Shown piece after piece: positions 1,621 to 23,874 of a stretch of DNA of 24,000 nt; within the stretch, counting starts at the first letter, position 1, and each line of letters starts with the position of its first letter. This DNA comes from Moraxellaceae bacterium (GTDB lineage Bacteria; Pseudomonadota; Gammaproteobacteria; Pseudomonadales; Moraxellaceae). The translations under genes and the position numbers were made by a program. The notes below the pieces were generated by a model. It did no database searches, was not told the DNA's origin, and worked only from the letters and a program-made list of their open reading frames with translations. The DNA is taken from the NCBI GenBank assembly GCA_037189985.1, contig JBBCJX010000009.1:1-24000 (forward strand). Direction: 5' to 3'.

Positions 1621-2247
1621 TTAACCTCTGTTGACCAAGGCGGCCATGAGGCGGTCGTGGTGGACGTAAATGGGGCGTCCAGTGGTCTTTTCTTTCTCGA
1701 TCCACCACTCCAGTACTTCACGCAGGCCAAGCGTGGCAGGCGAGTGGGCGGCTGCCGGTGCTGGTGATTGGTTAACCGGGCTCTTCTCCGGCAGGGCGGC
1801 GAGCCCATCCAGTACGCGCTGCCGGAGCTCCTGGGTCTTCTTGCCGCCAGATCCCTTCAGTGCGCCCGATGCGTAAGCTGTGCAAATGCCATTCTCTATG
1901 CACCACTTATTCATGGTGGTCCCTTTCTTCTTGAATTCTTCCTTCACGGCGGTCCGGATATCGCGTGTGGCCGATATCGCGGGCTTCGGTTTGTCTTCTT
2001 TTTGGGGGGCGGGCTCCGGCTTCATTTTCTTTTCGGCTTGCTTGTCGAGCTCGTTGCGGCGCTCGGCATCACGTTGTGGATTGATGCTGAAGTCCTTGAA
2101 GTTGGCCGTGTCGCCTGTGGCGCCAGCGCCGACGGCCTGTATCTTTCCGCCGCGCTGTAGGAAGCGCTCCATGTCGGCTTCCAGCTGCTCGCGGTAGCTT
2201 CTCTTCTGCTCGATGACGGCGCTGTTGATGATGGATGTTTCGGTCAT
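1621..2247 (-). CDS. Hypothetical protein with a possible Ner-like HTH segment
   Basis: ORF 1621..2268. The internal ATG at 2247 has a GAGG 5 nt upstream and clears the upstream stop codon (2255-2257). The central Lys/Glu/Pro-rich linker is followed by IRTAVKEEFKKKGTTMNKWCIENGICTAYASGALKG, which resembles Ner/Nlp-type HTH. Confidence 0.45.
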   Translation of the reverse strand: MTETSIINSAVIEQKRSYREQLEADMERFLQRGGKIQAVGAGATGDTANFKDFSINPQRDAERRNELDKQAEKKMKPEPAPQKEDKPKPAISATRDIRTAVKEEFKKKGTTMNKWCIENGICTAYASGALKGSGGKKTQELRQRVLDGLAALPEKSPVNQSPAPAAAHSPATLGLREVLEWWIEKEKTTGRPIYVHHDRLMAALVNRG

Positions 2248-2254
2248 GATGGCC

Positions 2255-2524
2255 TCAGTTCTTGTCATAAACGGATTTGAGCCAGCTGGAGTACTCGCCC
2301 ATGTTGCTGATCAATATGAGGCGGCTGTCGTCGCACCCGCGTAAGCGGGAGGCGTCATCGCAGTCTGTGCATGCGTTTATGTACTCATGCAGGCTGGCGA
2401 TAGCCGCATCCAGTTTTTTGGCAGTGGCAAGTCCGGCTTGCACGCGCTTTGCTTTGTTGCGGGCTTCTCTTTTCCGCTGGGTGTCGCTCTTGAAGTCGTC
2501 GCCCGACATTGATTGCTGAATCAT
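2255..2524 (-). CDS. Hypothetical 89-aa protein, start codon abuts the RT stop (TAAATG)
   Basis: The ORF start (ATG, 2524-2522) immediately follows the RT stop TAA (2527-2525). The N-terminus is basic (KREARNKAKR) and Cys residues are present (CTDCDD..C). I recognise no family. Confidence 0.5.
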   Translation of the reverse strand: MIQQSMSGDDFKSDTQRKREARNKAKRVQAGLATAKKLDAAIASLHEYINACTDCDDASRLRGCDDSRLILISNMGEYSSWLKSVYDKN

Positions 2525-3706
2525 TTATTTTCCCGCCCCATAGATTTTGGTCAGATGGTGATTCACGGCACGGCCGCGCTGCAGGATGGCTTTGGAAACC
2601 TTCGCGCGGTCCTGCTGGCTATGGGTGGCTTGCCCGATCAGGCCGAGGTAGCTGTTGGCCACGGCCGTCAGATCCTCGCGTGGTGTTGTGCGCATGGCGG
2701 CCACGGCATGGTTCACTGTCCGGCGGCGGGTGGTGCGGTGCCATGGCTTGATGACCTGGCCCACAAAGTCCACACCACGCGACACGGGCTGCAGGATCGT
2801 CTTCTTGGGATTGAGCTCAAGGGCGAGGCGTGCCGGCAGGAAGGCCTCTATCTCGGCCAGCCATGCACGCAACTGCTGCGGTGATTCGTGCACCAGAACA
2901 AAGTCATCCACATAGCGCACGTAATGCCGGCAGCCAAGACGGTGCTTAACAAACTGGTCCAGCTCATTCATGGTGACGTTGGCGCCGGATTGGCTGGGCA
3001 GGTTTCCTATGGGAAAGCCCTTGTTGCTGGGCTGGCTGGCCAGCCGCTTGTGTGCCGGCACGCGCTCGATCAGTCGTGGATCGCCCCGGTATTCAAAGTC
3101 CTGACGCGGGTCATGGAAGTAGATCGTGTGCGCGAGCCAGCGCCACCATGGCTCAGGAATGCCGGGGGCCAGCAGGCTCCAGAAAATGTCCTTGTCCAGA
3201 GAGACAAAGAAGTTGGCAATGTCGCATTTCAGGTAATAACACGGCCGTGACCAGTTCTGTGATGCGCTCCGGATGTGGTGTTCAAGGCGCTTGGCGCCGT
3301 AGAGGGTCCCTCTTCCTGGAATGCAGGCGCAGCTGTCGGCAATGAAGCGACGCATGAAGCGGTCGGAAATGTGATTGTGCAGTAGCCAGTGCACGATGCG
3401 GTCACGGAAAGGGGCAGCCCATACCTCGCGCGGCTTCGGCCGCGTGATGACAAAGCAGATGCTGCGGCCGGGCTGGTAGGTCTGGCTGCGGAGCTCGTCA
3501 CGTAGCTTGATCAGCTCGCGCTCGTAGTTGAGCTCAAAGGCAAAGGCGCTGGCGGTATTGCGCTTGGTCCGGCTGCAGTCGCGATAGGCGCGCAACAGAT
3601 CGGAGAATAAAAAATCAGCATGGGCCTCGGGGAGGGCATCCGTAAAATCTGCGGACGGCCACTGCACGACGCTTGTTGTCCTTGTTGTTGATGTTGCTGT
3701 TGCCAT
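2525..3706 (-). CDS. DGR-type reverse transcriptase (RNA-directed DNA polymerase)
   Basis: Has the catalytic YVDDFVLV (YxDD) box. The preceding FPIGNLPSQSGANV matches the [ILV]GxxxSQ motif characteristic of DGR RTs (Bordetella phage BPP-1 Brt has IGSLTSQ). The N-terminal FSDLLRAYRDCSRTKR aligns with Brt WENLLDAYRKTSHGKR. The start is uncertain. The ORF opens at GTG 3766. ATG 3706 has AGGA 8 nt upstream. GTG 3667 would give an N-terminus of Brt-like length. All three candidates lie inside or beyond the TR. Confidence 0.92.
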   Translation of the reverse strand: MATATSTTRTTSVVQWPSADFTDALPEAHADFLFSDLLRAYRDCSRTKRNTASAFAFELNYERELIKLRDELRSQTYQPGRSICFVITRPKPREVWAAPFRDRIVHWLLHNHISDRFMRRFIADSCACIPGRGTLYGAKRLEHHIRSASQNWSRPCYYLKCDIANFFVSLDKDIFWSLLAPGIPEPWWRWLAHTIYFHDPRQDFEYRGDPRLIERVPAHKRLASQPSNKGFPIGNLPSQSGANVTMNELDQFVKHRLGCRHYVRYVDDFVLVHESPQQLRAWLAEIEAFLPARLALELNPKKTILQPVSRGVDFVGQVIKPWHRTTRRRTVNHAVAAMRTTPREDLTAVANSYLGLIGQATHSQQDRAKVSKAILQRGRAVNHHLTKIYGAGK

Positions 3707-3748
3707 ACTCGAAGTCCTGAACGTAGACGTTGTTGGCGTCGTTCTGGG
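3650..3748 (-). repeat. DGR template repeat (TR), 99-bp core
   Basis: Aligns without gaps to 4409..4507 and 4996..5094. At every variable position but one, this copy carries A on the minus strand. In the VR reading frame it reads QNDANNVYVQDFEYGNSNINNKDNKRRAVAVR and contains eight AAC codons. Confidence 0.92.
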
Positions 3749-3902
3749 CCGTGTCATGCTATCCACGTCGCCCGGTCGAATCCTCGGCCGGAAAACTGCG
3801 CGAGACCTGCCGGCATGCGCTGGCGGTTTCTCTGATGCGCCTGGCGGTGGCGGCAGTACTGCGCCGCCAGCGGCATAACCAGATTCAGAATACGCACGGC
3901 AG

Positions 3903-4319
3903 TCAAAGCCTTAACTCTGACTGGACTGGCGAGGTTGCGGCTTGGGTGGCCCCGGTATCGCTAAGTGCGCTACTTACACTGCCGTTTTTCCAGCCGCCTG
4001 CTTGGGCGCCGATGGAATCAAGTGTCTCGATGGCTCTGGCGTGGTGCGTGATCGCAATGACTCGTGCGCGTGCCAGTGACCGAAACTGGAAAATCAGGAC
4101 GTCCAGGCTCTCCAAGAGATCGTCAATGCGATCTGCCCGGATGGTTCCTTGGGCCATGTTGGCGCGGCGGATGAGCAGCCCGAGCTTGGAGGCTCGGTCC
4201 AGCATCAGCGGCCCCATCGTGGCTCTGGTGGTCTTCGGAACCTGGCTCATTATCGTGATTGTCTGATCCACCAGCGTTTCAGCCGCGCGGTAAATGGGTA
4301 AATCGGAATGCAGGCTCAT
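3903..4319 (-). CDS. avd: Accessory variability determinant (Avd)-like four-helix-bundle protein
   Basis: 138 aa, located between the target genes and the TR as in canonical DGRs. Helical, basic sequence: ETLVDQTITIMSQVPKTTRATMGPLMLDRASKLGLLIRRAN ... LDVLIFQFRSLARARVI ... IETLDSIGAQAGGWKN. This resembles Avd / 23S-rRNA-IVS-family proteins. The call rests on position and pattern, not on a search. Confidence 0.75.
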   Translation of the reverse strand: MSLHSDLPIYRAAETLVDQTITIMSQVPKTTRATMGPLMLDRASKLGLLIRRANMAQGTIRADRIDDLLESLDVLIFQFRSLARARVIAITHHARAIETLDSIGAQAGGWKNGSVSSALSDTGATQAATSPVQSELRL

Positions 4320-4345
4320 GCTGATAAAACCAAAAATTCAAAAAC

Positions 4346-4364
4346 GAGGGCGCATAGCGCCCTC
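4346..4364 (-). promoter_or_regulatory. GC-rich hairpin downstream of VR1 (8-bp stem gagggcgc/gcgccctc, 3-nt loop); candidate DGR target-recognition hairpin and/or intrinsic terminator
   Basis: Perfect inverted repeat, read directly. On the minus strand it is followed by a T-rich tract (gtttttgaatttttggtttt). A paralogous hairpin sits at the same relative position after VR2. Confidence 0.6.
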
Positions 4365-4379
4365 ACAGCAGGTTAAGGA

Positions 4380-4904
4380 TTAAAGGACTGAAGCACTCAG
4401 CTGAATCGTGCGGACGGCCACTGCACGACGCTTGAAGCCCTTGCGGCTGATGCTGCTGTAGCCATACTCGAAGTCCTGAACGTGGACGTTGTAGGCGTCG
4501 TGCTGGGTGCTGGTCCAATACCAGCCCTCCGGGTTGAGCAGGTGCGGCACGTTGATCGACAGGATTTTCGATTCGTTGGTGGACGGCATGAACCAGTCGC
4601 GGTGGCCTTCGATATCCAAGGCGAGAATCTTTTTGCAGATATCGCTGCCGGCGGCGGCAAAGGCGATGGTGTTGGCCATGCCATTGTCCTTGCTGTCAGC
4701 GCCCTCGACCTTTTCGCCGTAGGTTCCGAATTCTTCTTTTTCGGGGTGGCCTGCCAGATCGGTGGCAATGATCAGTGCACGGAGGGGCTCGCCGGGCTTG
4801 CCGCCGATGATGCCGGCGAAGACGCCGCCTTGGCCGGGCCAGGCTTCGCCAATGTGTGGGGAAGAAAACGTGGTGGTGTGAAGCAGTGTGGCGGGTGCGT
4901 TCAT
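4380..4904 (-). CDS. DGR variable target protein 1 (DUF1566/Lcl-C-terminal-like C-type-lectin-fold candidate), 174 aa
   Basis: AGGAG lies 8 nt upstream of the ATG at 4904. The C-terminus contains VR1. The motifs DWFMPSTNE and WYWTSTQ, and the ending RRAVAVR, resemble DUF1566-type DGR targets. It is about 40% identical to the adjacent paralogue outside the VR. Confidence 0.85.
   Translation of the reverse strand: MNAPATLLHTTTFSSPHIGEAWPGQGGVFAGIIGGKPGEPLRALIIATDLAGHPEKEEFGTYGEKVEGADSKDNGMANTIAFAAAGSDICKKILALDIEGHRDWFMPSTNESKILSINVPHLLNPEGWYWTSTQHDAYNVHVQDFEYGYSSISRKGFKRRAVAVRTIQLSASVL
4409..4507 (-). repeat. DGR variable repeat VR1
   Basis: 11 mismatches to the TR. Ten are at TR adenines (TR + strand positions 3676, 3677, 3679, 3685, 3686, 3688, 3694, 3701, 3734, 3743). 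One is at a non-adenine (3725). It encodes QHDAYNVHVQDFEYGYSSISRKGFK. Confidence 0.9.
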
Positions 4905-4932
4905 GGTATTGCTCCTGAAAAATTTGCGCGCG

Positions 4933-4951
4933 AAGGGCGCTGCGCGCCCTT
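4933..4951 (-). promoter_or_regulatory. GC-rich hairpin downstream of VR2 (8-bp stem aagggcgc/gcgccctt, 3-nt loop)
   Basis: Perfect inverted repeat, read directly. It is paralogous to 4346..4364, and the sequence between hairpin and VR is also conserved between the two copies. Confidence 0.6.
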
Positions 4952-4975
4952 ACAACTGGTTAAGGATTGAAGGAC

Positions 4976-5488
4976 TCAAGCACTCAGCTGAATCTTGCGG
5001 ACGGCCACTGCACGACGCTTGAGGTCCTTGTCGTAGAGGCTGCTGCCGCCATACTCGAAGTCCTGAACGAAGACGTTGTCGGCGTCGTACTGGGTGCTGG
5101 TCAGGTAGTAGTAATCAAACTTGAAAAGCTGCGGCACGTTGATGGCCATTGCACGGGCATCATGGGCAGCAGGCAGGATCAGGTCTTTTTGCCCGGCAAT
5201 TTCCAGATCAAGAATCTGCTGGCAGATCTCGCTGCCGGCGGCGGCAAGGGCGATAGTGTTGGCGCGGCCGTCGTGCATGCTCGTGGCGGCCTCGACATCG
5301 ATGCCGTAGGTGCCGAGCTGGACGCCCTCGAAGTGCACGCGCGGATCATCGGGCAGGATAATGGCTTCGTAGGGACGGCCTTCCTGTCCTCCGGTGATGC
5401 CGCAGAAAATGCCGTGGTGCTCCGGCCAGACGATGCCGACGCGGGGCAGGTTGAGGGTGACGATGACGGGTGTGGCAGATGCATTCAT
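4976..5488 (-). CDS. DGR variable target protein 2 (paralogue of target 1), 170 aa
   Basis: The ORF track extends to 5722. The ATG at 5488 (MNASATP...) parallels the MNAPATL... start of the paralogue and has AGGAG upstream. The C-terminus contains VR2. Confidence 0.85.
   Translation of the reverse strand: MNASATPVIVTLNLPRVGIVWPEHHGIFCGITGGQEGRPYEAIILPDDPRVHFEGVQLGTYGIDVEAATSMHDGRANTIALAAAGSEICQQILDLEIAGQKDLILPAAHDARAMAINVPQLFKFDYYYLTSTQYDADNVFVQDFEYGGSSLYDKDLKRRAVAVRKIQLSA
4996..5094 (-). repeat. DGR variable repeat VR2
   Basis: 11 mismatches to the TR, all at TR adenines (3676, 3677, 3686, 3689, 3692, 3694, 3700, 3701, 3724, 3734, 3743). It encodes QYDADNVFVQDFEYGGSSLYDKDLK. Confidence 0.9.
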
Positions 5489-5514
5489 GGTGGTGCTCCT
5501 GGTTGTAGTCGGGG

Positions 5515-6516
5515 TTATTTGCCTGCGCAGGTACTGCAGAGGGATGGCTCGACCCAGTAGCAACCGCCTGCGCAGGCGCGATGCCACGTGCACCCGCAAA
5601 CCCTGCAGATGTCTTTCTCTGGATCGATGGGGGTTATTGAGGTGATGAGCAGCTGCAGGGCGTGACTGGTGATTGCGGTCACTTCCTCTGTGGTTGCGGG
5701 GCGGGGCTCGGCTGTTCCCCACTTTTCGCCTGCTGGCCAGAACACGCGAGCAGAGTCGCCATCAGGGGTGGGATATTTACGCATTAGCGTGATGGTGCCG
5801 ATGTCCGGAACCGACTCATGTATTTCGTTCGGTTCCTGGGCGTAGGTATCGCCGCTGATGTAGATCTCGGCAACTCCGCGCCTCAGCAAGGTATGGCTCG
5901 GTGCATCTTTGAAGTGGCAGTTCTCGCCCGGCTTGAGTGTCACGGCCATATAGGGATCGCCGAGCCCCTCCGTGAAGCGGTGATTCACAAGGCGGCCGCT
6001 GACGATGGTTGAGCTGAGGCCCCACTGCAGGTGGTCATGGATGGTGCTCACGTTGGCGAACGCATGGCGGCTGTCCCAGACGTGAAGTCTGGTTTCTCCC
6101 GGCAAATGCAGGCGCAGCATGCCGAACCCTTGCAGCGACCAACTGAACTTTCCCGCATTTTCCAGAATGAAGCGCACCAAGCTGCGCAGGCGGGGTAGGT
6201 CGGTTTCCGTCAGTGCTGCCATGTCATGTGCAACAGCTTTCTCCTGAATATCATCAAGGACATCCTCATTGATGATGCGCATGGGAATGTCTTCGCCGCC
6301 CTCGATCCAGTAGCCGCCGTCATGGTCATAGCGCTCACAGTGCAGTGGGCGTTCGTGCCATGGTTGAGTTGGCTCGCCACCCATTTCTGGAATGGTGTAG
6401 CTGTCAAACGGGCCGCCATAGGTGGGCACGAGGCCGAGCTCGGGATGCTCTATCACCATGAAAAAATCACGGCGGGTGATGGGGCACTTTTCGGGGTGAG
6501 TGTTGGTGATGGTCAT
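5515..6516 (-). CDS. Hypothetical protein with Cys-rich C-terminal module
   Basis: ORF 5515..6576. The ATG at 6516 has GAGGG 7 nt upstream and clears the upstream stop at 6527. The middle has a His-rich cupin-like pattern (LHVWDSRH...IHDHLQWGLSSTIVSG). The C-terminus is CRVCGCTWHRACAGGCYWVEPSLCSTC. Confidence 0.6.
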   Translation of the reverse strand: MTITNTHPEKCPITRRDFFMVIEHPELGLVPTYGGPFDSYTIPEMGGEPTQPWHERPLHCERYDHDGGYWIEGGEDIPMRIINEDVLDDIQEKAVAHDMAALTETDLPRLRSLVRFILENAGKFSWSLQGFGMLRLHLPGETRLHVWDSRHAFANVSTIHDHLQWGLSSTIVSGRLVNHRFTEGLGDPYMAVTLKPGENCHFKDAPSHTLLRRGVAEIYISGDTYAQEPNEIHESVPDIGTITLMRKYPTPDGDSARVFWPAGEKWGTAEPRPATTEEVTAITSHALQLLITSITPIDPEKDICRVCGCTWHRACAGGCYWVEPSLCSTCAGK

Positions 6517-6526
6517 GCCGGCGCCC

Positions 6527-14745: not shown

Positions 14746-15654
14746 ATGAGTTCGCGCGTGATGGGCATGGTGTTTGATCGATACCCGGTTGGCGGCAGTG
14801 AATTCATTCTTGCGTTGGCGCTGGCAGACCATGCCAGTGATGACGGGACAAATATTTACCCGTCGGTGGATTATTCCGCGACAAAAGCACGGCAGTCACG
14901 ACGCTCCGTGCAGATAAATCTGAGAAAAATGCAGAGCCGGGGATTTATCACGGTTGTGCGGGAGGCTGCATATGGCCGTACCCGTGAATACCGAATCACA
15001 CCGGAGTGGATTGCTGGCGGTGAGCTCAAGCCGTTGACAACAGACCATGTACCGGAGGGTGCAGATTCTGCACCCCTGCCTCCTGTGGACAACCCTGACA
15101 GTGATGAAAAACCGGGGTGCAGTCCAGTGTATGGGGGGGCGCAGAATTTGACAGGGGGGGTGCAGGATGACGCACAAAACATGCCTCAAACTGCGCCCAA
15201 ACCATGTATTAACCATCAAGAACAGGGTTTTAACCATCAACCGGCCGTTGTGGAAAACCCGGCGCCTGTAAAACCTCCGTCGCTCTCGGTGCGCGAAAAA
15301 TTCGAGAGATTCTGGTCGGATTACCCGCGTCATGATCAACCGGGTAAGGCGTGGCAACAGTTTCTCAAGATTGATCCGGACGATGCGTTGTTCGGATGGA
15401 TCATGAGAGCCATCGCACATCAGAAAACAACCGACAAATGGAAAAACGACGAGGGGAAGTGGATTCCCTACGCCGTGAACTGGCTTGGCAAGCAACAGTG
15501 GAAAATTTCAAAGGCCGCAAGGGTTGACCAGGGTGGGGCGGAGCCTTTGCCAAGGCTGGCGAGGGGTGCAGATTCTGCGCCTGTGGCAGATGGCGTGGGG
15601 GCCAGTGGGCATGCCTATCTCGGTGAGATGAAAAAGATTCTGGGCAAGGGTTGA
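14746..15654 (+). CDS. Putative replication-initiation/primosomal-type protein (N-terminal winged-helix domain)
   Basis: The N-terminal pattern YPVGGSEFILALALADHASDDG ... SVQINLRKMQSRGFITVV resembles phage replication-protein HTH domains. The C-terminal FERFWSDYPRHDQPGKAWQQF ... IPYAVNWLGKQQW motif is common in phage replication-module proteins. The gene sits after cII. Confidence 0.45.
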   Translation: MSSRVMGMVFDRYPVGGSEFILALALADHASDDGTNIYPSVDYSATKARQSRRSVQINLRKMQSRGFITVVREAAYGRTREYRITPEWIAGGELKPLTTDHVPEGADSAPLPPVDNPDSDEKPGCSPVYGGAQNLTGGVQDDAQNMPQTAPKPCINHQEQGFNHQPAVVENPAPVKPPSLSVREKFERFWSDYPRHDQPGKAWQQFLKIDPDDALFGWIMRAIAHQKTTDKWKNDEGKWIPYAVNWLGKQQWKISKAARVDQGGAEPLPRLARGADSAPVADGVGASGHAYLGEMKKILGKG

Positions 15655-18166: not shown

Positions 18167-20145
18167 TGGACGCGCTACCTATTGCTGATGGCCATGTTGT
18201 CTATACGCAGGCCTTCATGCGCGGGCTTTTGCCTGACCCGCCACTCTGGATTGATGAGTGGTCCGATGCGCATATGCGTATTCCGCCGGGCGGTGGCGCT
18301 GAGGTAGGACCGTACAAGATTGCTCGCACGCCATATGCGAGAGAGCCGATGCAGTGCTTGTCGCCGGAGCATCCGAGCAAGCGCGTTGTTGGCATGGTGG
18401 CATCGCAGCTGTTCAAGACGCAGGTTGGCTTGAACTGGATGTGCGGCAGCATCGTTGGCGCCCCTGCCAACATCCTTGCGCTGATGCCTTCGCTGAATTT
18501 GGCGAAGCGCTTGTCGAACCGTATCGGCAAAACGATTGATGAGGTCCCGGAGTGCCGCAAGACGGTGGCTTCGCCACGCTCACGTGATGCGCGTAATACC
18601 ATCGATACCAAAGAGTTTCGGGGTGGCACGCTGTACATCACCACGGCGGGGTCGGCTGCCAACCTTGCTGAAATTCCGGCGCGGTATATCTACGGTGATG
18701 AGATTGATCGCTGGGAACAGAATGTTGGTGGTGAAGGTGACCCCATCGATCTGGCAGAGGCTCGCGGCAGTACTTTCGGGCGTAATGCCAAGTTCTATTA
18801 CACGTCATCGCCCACGCTGGAGGGGGCAAGCCGCATTGCGGATTTGTTCGCCCAGAGCGATCAGCGCCACTATTACGTGCCATGTCCGCATTGCGGCCGC
18901 ATGCAGATTCTGGTGTGGGAGCAGCTGGATTACGACATCGAGACGAAGCGGGCCCAGTACCGTTGCATCAATACGGATGATTGCGGGGCGCTGATTGATG
19001 AGGCGGCCAAAGAGACCATGCTCGCCAATGGCGAGTGGAGGGCGCACGCGAAAGGTGATGGTGAGACGGTCGGCTTCACGTTGTCGACGCTGTACTCCCC
19101 GCCCGGCTGGGTGACATGGTTCGGTCTTGCGGCCCAGTATGACAAGGCCAAGAAAGCGCTGGAGCGTGGCGACCAAGAGCCGATGCAGGTTTTCTACAAC
19201 ACGCGTTTGGCCAGGACATGGAATTCTGTCCAGGAGATGACGAAGTGGGAGGAGCTCAAGAAGCGTGCTGAGGATTATCAGCTGCGCACGATTCCGGATG
19301 GCGTCCTTGCGCTGACGGCTTCGGTCGATGTTCAGGGCAACCGACTGGAGCTCAAGATCATTGGCTGGGGCGAGGGGCTGGAGCGCTGGGTTATTGATTA
19401 TCAGGTCATCCATGGAGACCCCTCGCTGGACGCAACATGGGCAGCACTTGATGAGATTTTAAAGACGCCAATCATTCATCCGTGTGGATACCGGATGACG
19501 ATTGCAGCTGCTGGTGTGGATTCTGGTGGCCACCATACGCAAGAGGTTTATGCCTTCACGCGTAATCGTCAGCATCGTCATGTACTGGCACTGAAGGGGG
19601 CCACTAAGCCGAATCGGCCGGTGATCTCCGGTAAGCCCTCCAAGGTGGACGTTACATGGAATGGCCAGACGGAGAAGCATGGTGCAGAGCTCTGGTTTGT
19701 TGGCACAGATACGGCAAAAGACTGGCTGTATAACCGGATGAAGTTGCCCAGCGGGCCGGGTGCTATTCACTTCTCCAAAGACTTGCCGGATGAGTTCTAC
19801 CAGCAGCTGGTGGCGGAGCGGCGGCTTACGCGATACGTGAAAGGCTTCAAGCGGTCGGAGTGGGTGAAGGCAAAGGCGGATCGCAACGAGGCACTGGATC
19901 TGGCTGTCTATAACCTGGCCATTGCGTACTACCTCAATCTGCATCGTTACAAGGAGGCAGATTGGGAGCGTTTGCGTATGCGGATCAATCCTCCGCAACG
20001 AGACATTTTTGAATCACCGGCGCCTGAGCCAGAGGCACCGGTTGAGCACGAACAGCAGCCCGCTTCCAGCGGGCTTTTTATTGGGCGCAAAGAAAGTACT
20101 CAGACCGATGGCTGGGTGAATACGGGAGATGAGCCGTGGCTATGA
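18166..20145 (+). CDS. terL: Terminase large subunit, lambda GpA family
   Basis: 659 aa. The motif YYVPCPHCGRMQILVWEQL is GpA-typical. An ATPase N-terminal half and a nuclease C-terminal half are present, in lambda-like order upstream of gpW and the portal. Confidence 0.9.
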   Translation: MDALPIADGHVVYTQAFMRGLLPDPPLWIDEWSDAHMRIPPGGGAEVGPYKIARTPYAREPMQCLSPEHPSKRVVGMVASQLFKTQVGLNWMCGSIVGAPANILALMPSLNLAKRLSNRIGKTIDEVPECRKTVASPRSRDARNTIDTKEFRGGTLYITTAGSAANLAEIPARYIYGDEIDRWEQNVGGEGDPIDLAEARGSTFGRNAKFYYTSSPTLEGASRIADLFAQSDQRHYYVPCPHCGRMQILVWEQLDYDIETKRAQYRCINTDDCGALIDEAAKETMLANGEWRAHAKGDGETVGFTLSTLYSPPGWVTWFGLAAQYDKAKKALERGDQEPMQVFYNTRLARTWNSVQEMTKWEELKKRAEDYQLRTIPDGVLALTASVDVQGNRLELKIIGWGEGLERWVIDYQVIHGDPSLDATWAALDEILKTPIIHPCGYRMTIAAAGVDSGGHHTQEVYAFTRNRQHRHVLALKGATKPNRPVISGKPSKVDVTWNGQTEKHGAELWFVGTDTAKDWLYNRMKLPSGPGAIHFSKDLPDEFYQQLVAERRLTRYVKGFKRSEWVKAKADRNEALDLAVYNLAIAYYLNLHRYKEADWERLRMRINPPQRDIFESPAPEPEAPVEHEQQPASSGLFIGRKESTQTDGWVNTGDEPWL

Positions 20146-23828: not shown

Positions 23829-23845
23829 TCCGGCATGCAATGAAA

Positions 23846-23874
23846 AGCCCCGCACCTGCGGGGCTTTTTGTTTC
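23846..23874 (+). terminator. Rho-independent terminator after the capsid gene
   Basis: agccccgc-acct-gcggggct followed by TTTTGTTT. Confidence 0.8.

What the first reader, a model, noticed from the sequence alone, without database searches (positions are those of the whole stretch)
4346..4995. Non-coding 3' flank of both VRs is conserved, including an 8-bp GC hairpin: candidate IMH/target-recognition element
The stretch downstream of VR1 is 4365..4408 (acagcaggttaaggattaaaggactgaagcactcagctgaatcg). The stretch downstream of VR2 is 4952..4995 (acaactggttaaggattgaaggactcaagcactcagctgaatct). They differ at only 5 of 44 positions, and each is followed by a perfect 8-bp GC-rich hairpin with a 3-nt loop (4346..4364 and 4933..4951). 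This flank is absent downstream of the TR, where sequence diverges within a few bases of 3650. It is far better conserved than the coding bodies of the two genes. In the Bordetella phage BPP-1 DGR, VR-specific IMH sequence plus a downstream hairpin/cruciform define the retrohoming target and its directionality. Here the element is duplicated with each target. The VR1 hairpin is also followed by a T-tract on the minus strand, so it may double as an attenuator before avd.
Basis: partly seen in the sequence, partly recalled or inferred. Interest (0 to 1): 0.65.

Follow-up and report, generated by a model that had tools for sequence, protein, structure and literature searches.

The report
DGR target-end signal: repeat array plus hairpin
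The conserved stretch and hairpin after both hypervariable gene ends are very probably the "paste here" signal of a diversity-generating retroelement. This kind of signal is known, but here it has a three-base loop and a spacer made of 8-base repeats.

Summary
The numbers hold. The two flanks (4365-4408, 4952-4995) agree at 39 of 44 positions, against 61% identity for the gene bodies. Each is followed by a perfect 8-bp GC hairpin, and similarity stops at the hairpin's far edge. "Non-coding" is wrong: each flank also encodes the short C-terminal tail and stop codon of its target gene.

I examined 299 unique VR flanks from 148 related DGR loci:
- 64% are built of 8-nt units (YCMTTNAN), against 0% of TR flanks.
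- 39% carry a GC hairpin of at least 6 bp, against 10% of TR flanks.
- Among the 97 hairpins of the first 170 flanks, most loops are GCA, GTA or GAA closed by C:G, the stable DNA mini-hairpin type.

A near-identical metagenome copy differs at 9 of 8,082 bases, all inside VR1, so that target site has been used recently.

It differs in its 3-nt loop, its 44-nt distance and its repeat array. Only the VR1 hairpin looks like a true terminator.

Side result: the Rfam RT-15 RNA lies just upstream of the TR, and one of its loops pairs, with covariation, with the TR 3' boundary.

Earlier notes of this scan report similar octamer arrays on other DNA. No experiment or RNA data was available.

The parts
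4996..5094 (-). VR2, variable repeat at the 3' end of target gene 2 (CDS 4976-5488)
   Evidence: 99-nt repeat of the TR with 11 mismatches, nearly all at TR adenines.
4952..4995 (-). VR2 3' flank: array of about five 8-nt units (A GATTCAGC TGAGTGCT TGAGTCCT TCAATCCT TAACCAGT TGT). It encodes KIQLSA plus the stop TGA at 4976-4978.
   Evidence: It is 39/44 identical to the VR1 flank, and the pattern CTTNANNNCTTNANNNCTTNA is unique to the two flanks in the genome.
4933..4951 (-). VR2 hairpin, sense strand AAGGGCGC-GCA-GCGCCCTT. Its centre GCGCAGC fits the GCGNAGC mini-hairpin motif.
   Evidence: The motif is described in PMC13037366 and PMC3201870.
4905..4932 (-). Post-hairpin spacer CGCGCGCAAATTTTT, then the RBS AGGAG before the ATG of target 1.
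   Evidence: In the family a T4+ run lies mostly 4-10 nt after the stem. This site is not called terminator-like.
4409..4507 (-). VR1, variable repeat at the 3' end of target gene 1 (CDS 4380-4904)
   Evidence: all 9 differences from the near-identical contig L003 fall in 4435-4484.
4365..4408 (-). VR1 3' flank: array of about five 8-nt units (C GATTCAGC TGAGTGCT TCAGTCCT TTAATCCT TAACCTGC TGT). It encodes TIQLSASVL plus the stop TAA at 4380-4382.
4346..4364 (-). VR1 hairpin, sense strand GAGGGCGC-TAT-GCGCCCTC. The loop is atypical for the clade.
   Evidence: TAT was seen once among 97 family hairpins.
4326..4345 (-). T-rich tract GTTTTTGAATTTTTGGTTTT directly after the VR1 hairpin. Together they look like an intrinsic terminator or attenuator before avd (ATG at 4319).
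   Evidence: top terminator-like site; RNA hairpin -16.4 kcal/mol, z = -4.3.
3650..3748 (-). TR, the template repeat
3640..3653 (-). TR 3' boundary CGCAGATTTTACGG. It has no array and no hairpin after it. CAGAUUU can pair with the RT-15 loop.
   Evidence: no structure beyond shuffles; family-wide covariation of this boundary with the RT-15 loop.
3747..3934 (-). RT-15 RNA (Rfam RF03018). It spans the avd 3' end and the avd-TR spacer and abuts the TR 5' end. Its conserved unpaired stretch CUGAAUCUGG lies at 3879-3888.
   Evidence: 147 bits, gathering score 82; present in 13 of 13 clade loci tested.
3903..4319 (-). avd (bAvd-like accessory gene)
   Evidence: PF22296, below cut-off, E = 1e-6.
2525..3622 (-). 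DGR reverse transcriptase. The start codon is unresolved. The frame stays open into the TR, and an in-frame GTG is visible by eye near the TR 3' end.
   Evidence: RVT_1, E = 4e-16; the only copy in the genome.

Best explanation
The 63-nt block after each VR is the cis-acting 3' target-site module of this diversity-generating retroelement. The block is the 44-nt flank plus the 19-nt hairpin.

Shown:
- It follows both VRs and not the TR.
- It is kept at 89% identity while the two target genes have drifted to 61%.
- It ends exactly at the hairpin's 3' edge.
- It has the same two-part build as the flanks of most VRs in the clade of DGRs that carry RT-15 RNA and small DUF1566/Lcl_C targets. The first part is a G-poor array of 8-nt units, and the target's stop codon falls inside it. 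The second part, in roughly 40% of flanks, is a GC hairpin.

Inferred:
- The array does the job that IMH does in phage BPP-1, telling recipient (VR) from donor (TR).
- The hairpin forms on the sense strand when the DNA is single-stranded or supercoiled, and raises the efficiency with which the adenine-mutagenised cDNA is installed, as shown for BPP-1.
- At VR1 the hairpin, being directly followed by a U-tract, probably also attenuates read-through into avd, RT-15 RNA, TR and RT.
For: - Window: 39/44 flank identity against 61% for the gene bodies (P = 6e-5), 7/28 after the hairpin, and a compensatory outer stem pair.
- Both motifs are unique to the two VR flanks in the genome.
- Family, 299 unique VR flanks in 148 loci: lag-8 identity is 0.478 against 0.222 for TR flanks. 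64% of VR flanks, 0% of TR flanks and 2.4% of random windows exceed 0.43.
- GC hairpins of at least 6 bp occur in 117/299 VR flanks against 22/227 TR flanks. In the first set the random-window rate was 8%. The results hold after clustering: 178 VR clusters against 71 TR clusters.
- There are 43 distinct stems. GNA loops make up 56 of 97, and the closing pair is C:G in 85 of 97. This matches the stable d(GCGNAGC) mini-hairpin (PMC13037366, PMC3201870) and parallels the sense-strand GRNA loop of BPP-1 (PMC3240598; seen again in the Brt clade).
- Hairpins are as frequent after internal VRs (58/151) as after the last VR (59/148).
- A period of 8 is not a codon period, and the stop codon's offset varies. 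The constraint therefore acts on the nucleic acid.
- Activity: 9 mismatches in 8,082 bp against L003, all in VR1. By my reading, 8 of them lie at TR adenines.
Against: - There is no functional test.
- About half of the multi-VR loci of the clade have no hairpin at all. In BPP-1 the hairpin is helpful but not essential (PMC12875486).
- The loops are 3 nt, not 4-nt GRNA. The VR1 loop (TAT) does not fit even the clade's GNA rule, yet VR1 is the recently rewritten one.
- Hairpin stems are often identical within a locus (25/54 pairs against 8.7% between loci). Gene conversion or shared descent could produce this as well as selection.
- A T-run follows 66% of family hairpins, which leaves room for an RNA-level role.
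Confidence: 0.7

Rival explanations
1. The hairpins are RNA-level elements only: intrinsic terminators, attenuators or 3' stabilisers that set the ratio of target mRNA to avd/TR/RT transcript. They play no part in retrohoming.
For: VR1 hairpin plus GUUUUUGAAUUUUU is the best terminator-like site in 2000-7500. No sigma-70-like promoter was found there, so read-through control is plausible. 64 of 97 family hairpins have a T4+ run within 25 nt, against 3.7% of random windows.
Against: The T-run usually starts 4-10 nt after the stem, and only 4 of 97 start within 0-2 nt. The VR2 site is not terminator-like. Hairpins are as common between target genes as before avd. The bias towards GNA loops with a C:G closing pair is a DNA-hairpin signature (PMC3201870). 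This rival does not explain the array or its absence after the TR. Wu et al. found terminators after IMH in only a minority of DGRs (PMC5758913).
Confidence: 0.12
2. The similarity is a passive leftover of duplication, or of gene conversion seeded by the near-identical VRs, and has no function of its own.
For: The VRs are 87% identical over 100 nt and could seed conversion. Stems are often identical within a locus.
Against: Identity on the upstream side of the VR falls to 35/52 while the downstream 63 nt stay conserved, with a sharp edge at the hairpin. The same array-plus-hairpin build recurs in 178 sequence clusters of VR flanks and never after TRs. The only stem difference is compensatory.
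Confidence: 0.07
3. The flank is conserved because it encodes a needed C-terminal tail (xIQLSA) of the C-type-lectin-like target proteins.
For: The first 17-26 nt are coding, and IQLSA is shared by both proteins. All family members have a short tail after AVAVR.
Against: All third codon positions of the tail are identical. The non-coding 15 nt are 13/15 identical. Tails differ in length and sequence across the family, and the stop codon falls at variable offsets inside an 8-nt periodic array.
Confidence: 0.03
4. The 8-nt array exists to place stop codons in all three reading frames after the VR, so that frameshifted homing products are terminated. The hairpin is a separate element.
For: 40% of VR flanks have stops in all three frames within 48 nt, against 9% of shuffled flanks and 0% of TR flanks. 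Both window flanks do.
Against: The commonest unit is TTCA, which is not a stop. The total number of stop triplets is only slightly raised, 2.43 against 1.98. The effect may simply follow from the period: 8 is 2 modulo 3.
Confidence: 0.05

Closest known systems
Bordetella phage BPP-1 DGR target site: (G/C)14, IMH and the downstream hairpin/cruciform (Guo et al. 2011, PMC3240598)
   Same: An A-free, GC-rich end is shared by VR and TR. VR-specific sequence follows, containing the stop codon, and then an 8-bp GC-rich inverted repeat that is absent after the TR. The position just before avd is the same. I re-read BPP-1 itself and 56 unique VR flanks of its RT clade.
   Different: BPP-1 and its clade have a 4-nt GRNA loop. 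Guo et al. report hairpins 4-34 bp after the VR as they define it, with IMH included. In one search the stems begin 3-20 nt after the end of the TR-VR match. That clade has one 21-nt IMH resembling IMH*, and the Phage_DGR (RT-10) RNA lies 3' of the TR. Here the loops are 3 nt, the hairpin lies 44 nt after TR homology ends, the spacer is an 8-nt repeat array, and the RT-15 RNA lies 5' of the TR. The MyDGR criteria (PMC6602519) would not flag these hairpins.
Trinucleotide-loop hairpins of Nanoarchaeota (DUSEL4) DGRs (Paul et al. 2015, PMC4372165)
   Same: Both are DGR hairpins with a constrained 3-nt loop that begins with G and ends with A.
   Different: Those loops are GRA and lie inside the target ORF. 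Here the clade's loops are mostly GCA or GTA and lie after the stop codon. The hosts are bacterial or phage, and the RT clade is different.
DNA mini-hairpin d(GCGNAGC) / d(GCGNNAGC) (PMC13037366; closing-pair effect in PMC3201870)
   Same: The centre of the VR2 hairpin is GCGCAGC. 56 of 97 clade loops are GNA, and 85 of 97 have a C:G closing pair.
   Different: The stems here are 6-9 bp, not 2 bp. The VR1 loop TAT does not fit. Stability was not measured.
Rho-independent (intrinsic) terminator
   Same: At VR1 a GC-rich stem is followed at once by a T-tract.
   Different: At VR2 and in most relatives the T-run is 4-10 nt away from the stem. The element sits inside an operon whose distal genes must be expressed.
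DGRs with DUF1566/CLec2-type targets, category 'd' of Wu et al. 2018 (PMC5758913), exemplified by the Legionella LdtA DGR
   Same: The targets are short DUF1566/Lcl_C proteins with a C-terminal VR. Multi-target cassettes occur. A GC inverted repeat after IMH is reported to be needed for efficient homing in Legionella (as cited in PMC5758913 and PMC6602519).
   Different: The targets here have no evident signal peptide, and I did not examine this.

Membership tests
DGR hairpin/cruciform target element (Guo 2011; MyDGR criteria) | Lies downstream of a VR that differs from a TR at adenines | tested here: met
   two VRs, 11 mismatches each, 10-11 of them at TR adenines.
DGR hairpin/cruciform target element (Guo 2011; MyDGR criteria) | GC-rich inverted repeat with a 7-10 bp stem | tested here: met
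   perfect 8-bp stems with 7/8 and 6/8 G:C pairs.
DGR hairpin/cruciform target element (Guo 2011; MyDGR criteria) | 4-nt loop reading GRNA on the sense strand | tested here: not met
   the loops are 3 nt, TAT (VR1) and GCA (VR2).
DGR hairpin/cruciform target element (Guo 2011; MyDGR criteria) | 4-34 bp from the 3' end of the VR | tested here: inconclusive
   The hairpin is 44 nt from the end of TR homology. In BPP-1 the VR is defined to include the 21-nt IMH, so the comparable distance depends on how much of the array counts as IMH.
DGR hairpin/cruciform target element (Guo 2011; MyDGR criteria) | Absent downstream of the TR | tested here: met
   In the family, 22/227 TR flanks carry a hairpin against 117/299 VR flanks.
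DGR hairpin/cruciform target element (Guo 2011; MyDGR criteria) | Needed for efficient retrohoming; forms a hairpin or cruciform in supercoiled DNA | not testable with these tools
   This needs homing assays and structure-specific nuclease mapping.
IMH (initiation of mutagenic homing) | Begins with a GC-rich, adenine-poor segment and marks the 3' limit of A-to-N changes | tested here: met
   there are no VR/TR or VR1/L003 differences 3' of 4435. The last 26 nt, CAAGCGTCGTGCAGTGGCCGTCCGCA, are identical in the TR and both VRs.
IMH (initiation of mutagenic homing) | An imperfect repeat of IMH* at the TR end | tested here: inconclusive
   beyond CCGCA only GATT is shared, with a 1-nt offset. The rest of the flank is an 8-nt array without a TR counterpart.
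Intrinsic terminator | Stable GC stem followed within 0-2 nt by a U-tract | tested here: met
   This holds for VR1 only. At VR2 the T-run begins 10 nt after the stem, so the feature is not met there.
DNA mini-hairpin GCGNAGC | GNA loop closed by C:G | tested here: met
   This holds for VR2 (GCGCAGC) and for 56 of 97 clade hairpins. It is not met for VR1 (GCTATGC).
Octamer-array VR flank of RT-15-type DGRs (a class defined here and in earlier scan notes, not in the literature I could search) | At least 3 units with TTNA spaced 8 nt apart directly after the VR, G-poor, absent after the TR | tested here: met
   CTTNANNNCTTNANNNCTTNA in both flanks only; period 8; G is 12% of the array.

The most novel reading that the evidence does not exclude
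In DGRs of the RT-15 type, the G-poor array of 8-nt direct repeats after every VR is the real signal that separates target from template, rather than a BPP-1-like IMH. Together with a GNA DNA mini-hairpin on the sense strand, it would keep the VR 3' side open as single-stranded DNA for installation of the cDNA. In the same elements the template RNA would be closed into a loop by an 8-9 bp helix between the RT-15 domain (5' of the TR) and the TR 3' boundary. This is a retron-like layout (comparison from general knowledge) that may set where cDNA synthesis starts, and it is the reverse of the BPP-1 arrangement.
Probability: 0.3. Interest if true: 0.7.

Novelty: new variant of a known kind. Interest (0 to 1): 0.45.

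Why it matters
How a DGR finds its target, and avoids rewriting its own template, is still unresolved even for BPP-1 (PMC12875486). Current annotation rules look only for 4-nt GRNA hairpins 4-34 bp from the VR (PMC6602519).

This clade of DGRs is large and mostly multi-target. Its members mark targets with a different and easily recognised signature: an octamer array, often followed by a GNA-loop hairpin. That signature could help find remote or orphan targets. It could also guide the design of portable target tags for DGR-based directed evolution. Finally, it gives concrete mutations to test, namely unit number, loop identity and the RT-15 pairing with the TR boundary.

For this window alone the result is modest. 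It confirms that both target genes carry complete recipient signals and that at least VR1 is in current use.

Tried and rejected
- Single-protein searches for related loci found nothing. A 7-protein alignment was too divergent to search with. A 4-protein alignment worked.
- I tested whether the array pairs with the DGR RNA next to the TR. The longest complementary words between VR flanks and 200 nt upstream or 150 nt downstream of the TR barely exceed shuffles (6.37 against 6.00). Rejected as a general rule.
- I tested whether the array units are decoys for the RT-15 loop. The variable base of TTNA units beyond the first 9 nt does not follow loop position 6. Only the first, TR-homologous unit does. 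Rejected.
- The formal pair count on the hairpin alignment is circular for the inner six pairs, because the sequences were picked for having a stem. I rely instead on enrichment over TR flanks and random windows, and on the number of distinct stems.
- I saw no obvious 8-nt repeat array in the Brt clade flanks (judged by eye, lag not computed). I therefore do not claim the array for all DGRs.
- The alternative 6-bp GCGCGC hairpin next to the VR2 T-run is weaker than the main stem and did not appear in the folds.
- Rfam has no family for the flank or hairpin itself. Its only hit in 2400-5700 is RT-15.
Full report
**Anatomy.** All parts lie on the minus strand. In order they are:
- target gene 2 (5488-4976, 170 aa);
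- target gene 1 (4904-4380, 174 aa, weak Lcl_C/DUF1566 hit);
- avd (4319-3903, bAvd-like);
- a 99-nt TR (3748-3650);
- an RVT_1 reverse transcriptase.

The TR matches VR1 (4507-4409) and VR2 (5094-4996), with 11 mismatches each, 10-11 of them at TR adenines. The two target proteins are 51% identical. The genome holds one such RT.

**Check of the observation.**
- The flanks 4365-4408 and 4952-4995 agree at 39 of 44 positions. The hairpins at 4346-4364 and 4933-4951 are perfect 8-bp stems with 3-nt loops.
- The only stem difference is a compensatory change of the outer pair, G:C to A:T.
- Codon-aligned gene bodies are 61% identical, with 52% at third positions. The binomial P for 39/44 is 6e-5. 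The 28 nt after the hairpins agree at only 7 positions, so the conserved block ends at the stem.
- Hairpins of this quality are rare: 5 in the window against 0.75 in shuffles.
- Both the hairpin motif and the flank pattern CTTNANNNCTTNANNNCTTNA occur in the 3.4-Mb genome only at these two places.
- One point is wrong. The flank is not non-coding. The target ORFs continue into it for 26 nt (TIQLSASVL, stop at 4380-4382) and 17 nt (KIQLSA, stop at 4976-4978).

**Relatives.** Target-protein and RT searches brought in four sets of loci:
- a near-identical copy (L003/L004);
- distant homologues;
- 165 loci found by target similarity;
- 80 loci with the closest RTs.

A self-BLAST filter for repeats whose mismatches sit at adenines of one copy found TR/VR pairs in most of them. 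Two to four VRs per TR is usual.

**What the flank is.** Across 299 unique VR flanks from 148 loci, the sequence just after the end of TR homology is periodic with a period of 8.
- Identity at lag 8 is 0.478, against 0.222 for 227 TR flanks. 64% of VR flanks, 0% of TR flanks and 2.4% of random windows exceed 0.43.
- After clustering at 70% identity the figures hold (178 VR clusters, 63%; 71 TR clusters, 0%).
- The unit is roughly YCMTTNAN. TTNA motifs are spaced 8 nt apart in 207 cases, by far the commonest spacing. There are usually 3-4 per flank.
- The array is G-poor (12% G, 37% T).
- The target's stop codon falls inside the array at a variable offset (median 12 nt after TR homology ends), and the encoded tails differ in length and sequence. 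A period of 8 cannot be a codon effect, so the constraint is on the nucleic acid.
- The window's flanks read C/A GATTCAGC TGAGTGCT TCAGTCCT TTAATCCT TAACCTGC TGT, about five units.

**What the hairpin is.**
- A GC-rich hairpin (stem >=6, GC >=5, loop 3-6) lies within 75 nt of the VR end in 117/299 VR flanks, against 22/227 TR flanks. In the first set the figures were 97/170 VR flanks against 8% of random windows.
- Stems start mostly 29-41 nt after the conserved Arg codon, with smaller groups near 45-48 and 55-60. The window belongs to the second group.
- There are 43 distinct stem sequences. Loops are GCA (33), GTA (16), GAA (6) and GGA (1), so 56 of 97 are GNA. The 5' closing base is C in 85 of 97.
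- C-GNA-G is the motif of the unusually stable DNA mini-hairpin d(GCGNAGC), whose stability depends on the C:G closing pair (PMC13037366, PMC3201870). The 4-nt relative GCGNNAGC corresponds to the GRNA loops of BPP-1.
- I re-read BPP-1 (GCGGGGCC-GAAA-GGCCCCGC, 4 nt after the VR) and 56 unique flanks of its RT clade. Most of these carry GRNA tetraloops.
- Three-base GRA loops have been reported for Nanoarchaeota DGRs (PMC4372165).
- In the window, VR2 (GCGC-GCA-GCGC) is typical of the clade. VR1 (TAT) is a singleton.
- The pair count on the hairpin alignment is circular for the inner pairs, and I do not use it as evidence.

**Hairpin distribution.** Hairpin presence is a property of the locus. 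Among multi-VR loci, 60 have none, 29 have one at every VR, and the rest are mixed.
- Hairpins are equally common after the last VR (59/148) and after upstream VRs (58/151).
- Stems within a locus often share the same core (25/54 pairs, against 8.7% between loci).
- The literature agrees that the repeat is helpful but not universal. It is found in 34% of DGRs (PMC5758913). Deleting it severely but not completely impairs homing (PMC12875486).

**Terminator question.**
- The VR1 hairpin is followed at once by GTTTTTGAATTTTTGGTTTT and is the top terminator-like site in 2000-7500. As RNA it folds at -16.4 kcal/mol.
- The VR2 hairpin is followed by CGCGCGCAAATTTTT and is not called terminator-like.
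- In the family, 64 of 97 hairpins have a T4+ run within 25 nt (3.7% of random windows), but it starts 4-10 nt after the stem in most and within 0-2 nt in only 4.
- A dual role at VR1 is plausible. A purely transcriptional role for the class is not.

**Evidence of use.** The window and the independent metagenome contig L003 align over 8,082 bp with 9 mismatches, all at 4435-4484 inside VR1. Reading the TR, 8 of the 9 correspond to TR adenines. VR2, both flanks and both hairpins are identical in the two copies. VR1, with its atypical hairpin, has therefore served as a recipient recently.

**Side result: RT-15 RNA.**
- Rfam RT-15 (RF03018, 147 bits) covers 3747-3934, from the avd 3' end to the first bases of the TR.
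- It is present in 13 of 13 clade loci tested. [quoted passage not shown] RT-15 had no assigned function (PMC5737381).
- Its conserved stretch UGAAUCUGG, drawn unpaired in the model, is complementary to the TR 3' boundary CAGAUUCA.
- In 114 distinct loop/boundary pairs, 81% of cells pair. The covariation score is 0.269, against 0.104 in shuffles (0/500) and at most 0.107 for slid partners.
- One pair shows GC 55, UA 25, CG 16, AU 6, and another shows UA 103, CG 7.
- In the window the loop CUGAAUCUGG (3879-3888) can form 6 Watson-Crick pairs plus one G-U with the TR boundary, and 7-8 Watson-Crick pairs with GATTCAG in the VR flanks.
- Later array units do not covary with the loop, and the flanks show no general complementarity to the DGR RNA. 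I therefore treat RNA-guided recognition of the array as unsupported.

**Other properties.** 40% of VR flanks have stop codons in all three frames within 48 nt (9% of shuffles), including both window flanks. This may be a side effect of the period.

**Verdict.** The block is this DGR's target-end module, a known kind of element in a clade-specific form. What is new relative to the papers I could search is the octamer array and the RT-15 pairing with the TR boundary. Earlier notes of this scan report similar arrays, and an RT-16 analogue, on other DNA. I reached the array result before reading those notes.

Noticed in passing
window 3747-3934 (minus strand); loop at 3879-3888; TR boundary at 3646-3653: The Rfam RT-15 RNA sits between avd and the TR. 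Its conserved 'unpaired' UGAAUCUGG pairs with the TR 3' boundary CAGAUUCA, with covariation across 114 loci. This closes the template into a loop, the opposite layout to BPP-1, where the structured RNA is 3' of the TR.
   Followed up: yes
window 4435-4484 compared with L003 and L004: Over 8,082 bp the window differs from an independent metagenome contig at 9 positions, all inside VR1. VR2 is identical in both copies. The DGR has been active on VR1 since the two copies split.
   Followed up: yes
window 4408 and 4995 compared with TR 3649: After the shared ...CCGCA, each VR has one extra base (C or A) before GATTCA, relative to the TR (GATTTT). The same 1-nt offset recurs in several relatives, for example L110, L113, L141 and L151. 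Its origin is unexplained.
   Followed up: partly
window 4905-4932, and relatives: Many family hairpins are followed by a short palindromic TCGCGA/CGCGCG spacer and then a T-run, before the next gene's RBS or the avd start ...TTCAGCATGGC. Its function is unknown.
   Followed up: partly
L005-L010 (target homologue 48% identical): This is a DUF1566 homologue in a phage-like context with no TR or RT on the contig. It is still followed by octamer-like units (GTCCTTTA AGCCTTCG GTCCTTTC) but by no hairpin. It may be a remote or orphaned target.
   Followed up: no
window 3622-3766: The RT reading frame stays open through the whole TR. The ATG at 3621 is out of frame, and an in-frame GTG is visible by eye in the GC-rich 3' end of the TR. 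The true start is unresolved.
   Followed up: partly
window 15057-15075, 20057-20075, 23843-23868: These are the three other perfect hairpins with stems of at least 8 bp in the window. I did not examine them.
   Followed up: no
window 5515-12400 and L003, L012: The DGR lies at the end of a co-oriented block containing a 678-aa ParB-like gene and ASCH-domain genes. The same ParB-then-targets order is seen in L012. Integrase genes follow the RT in L011 and L012.
   Followed up: no
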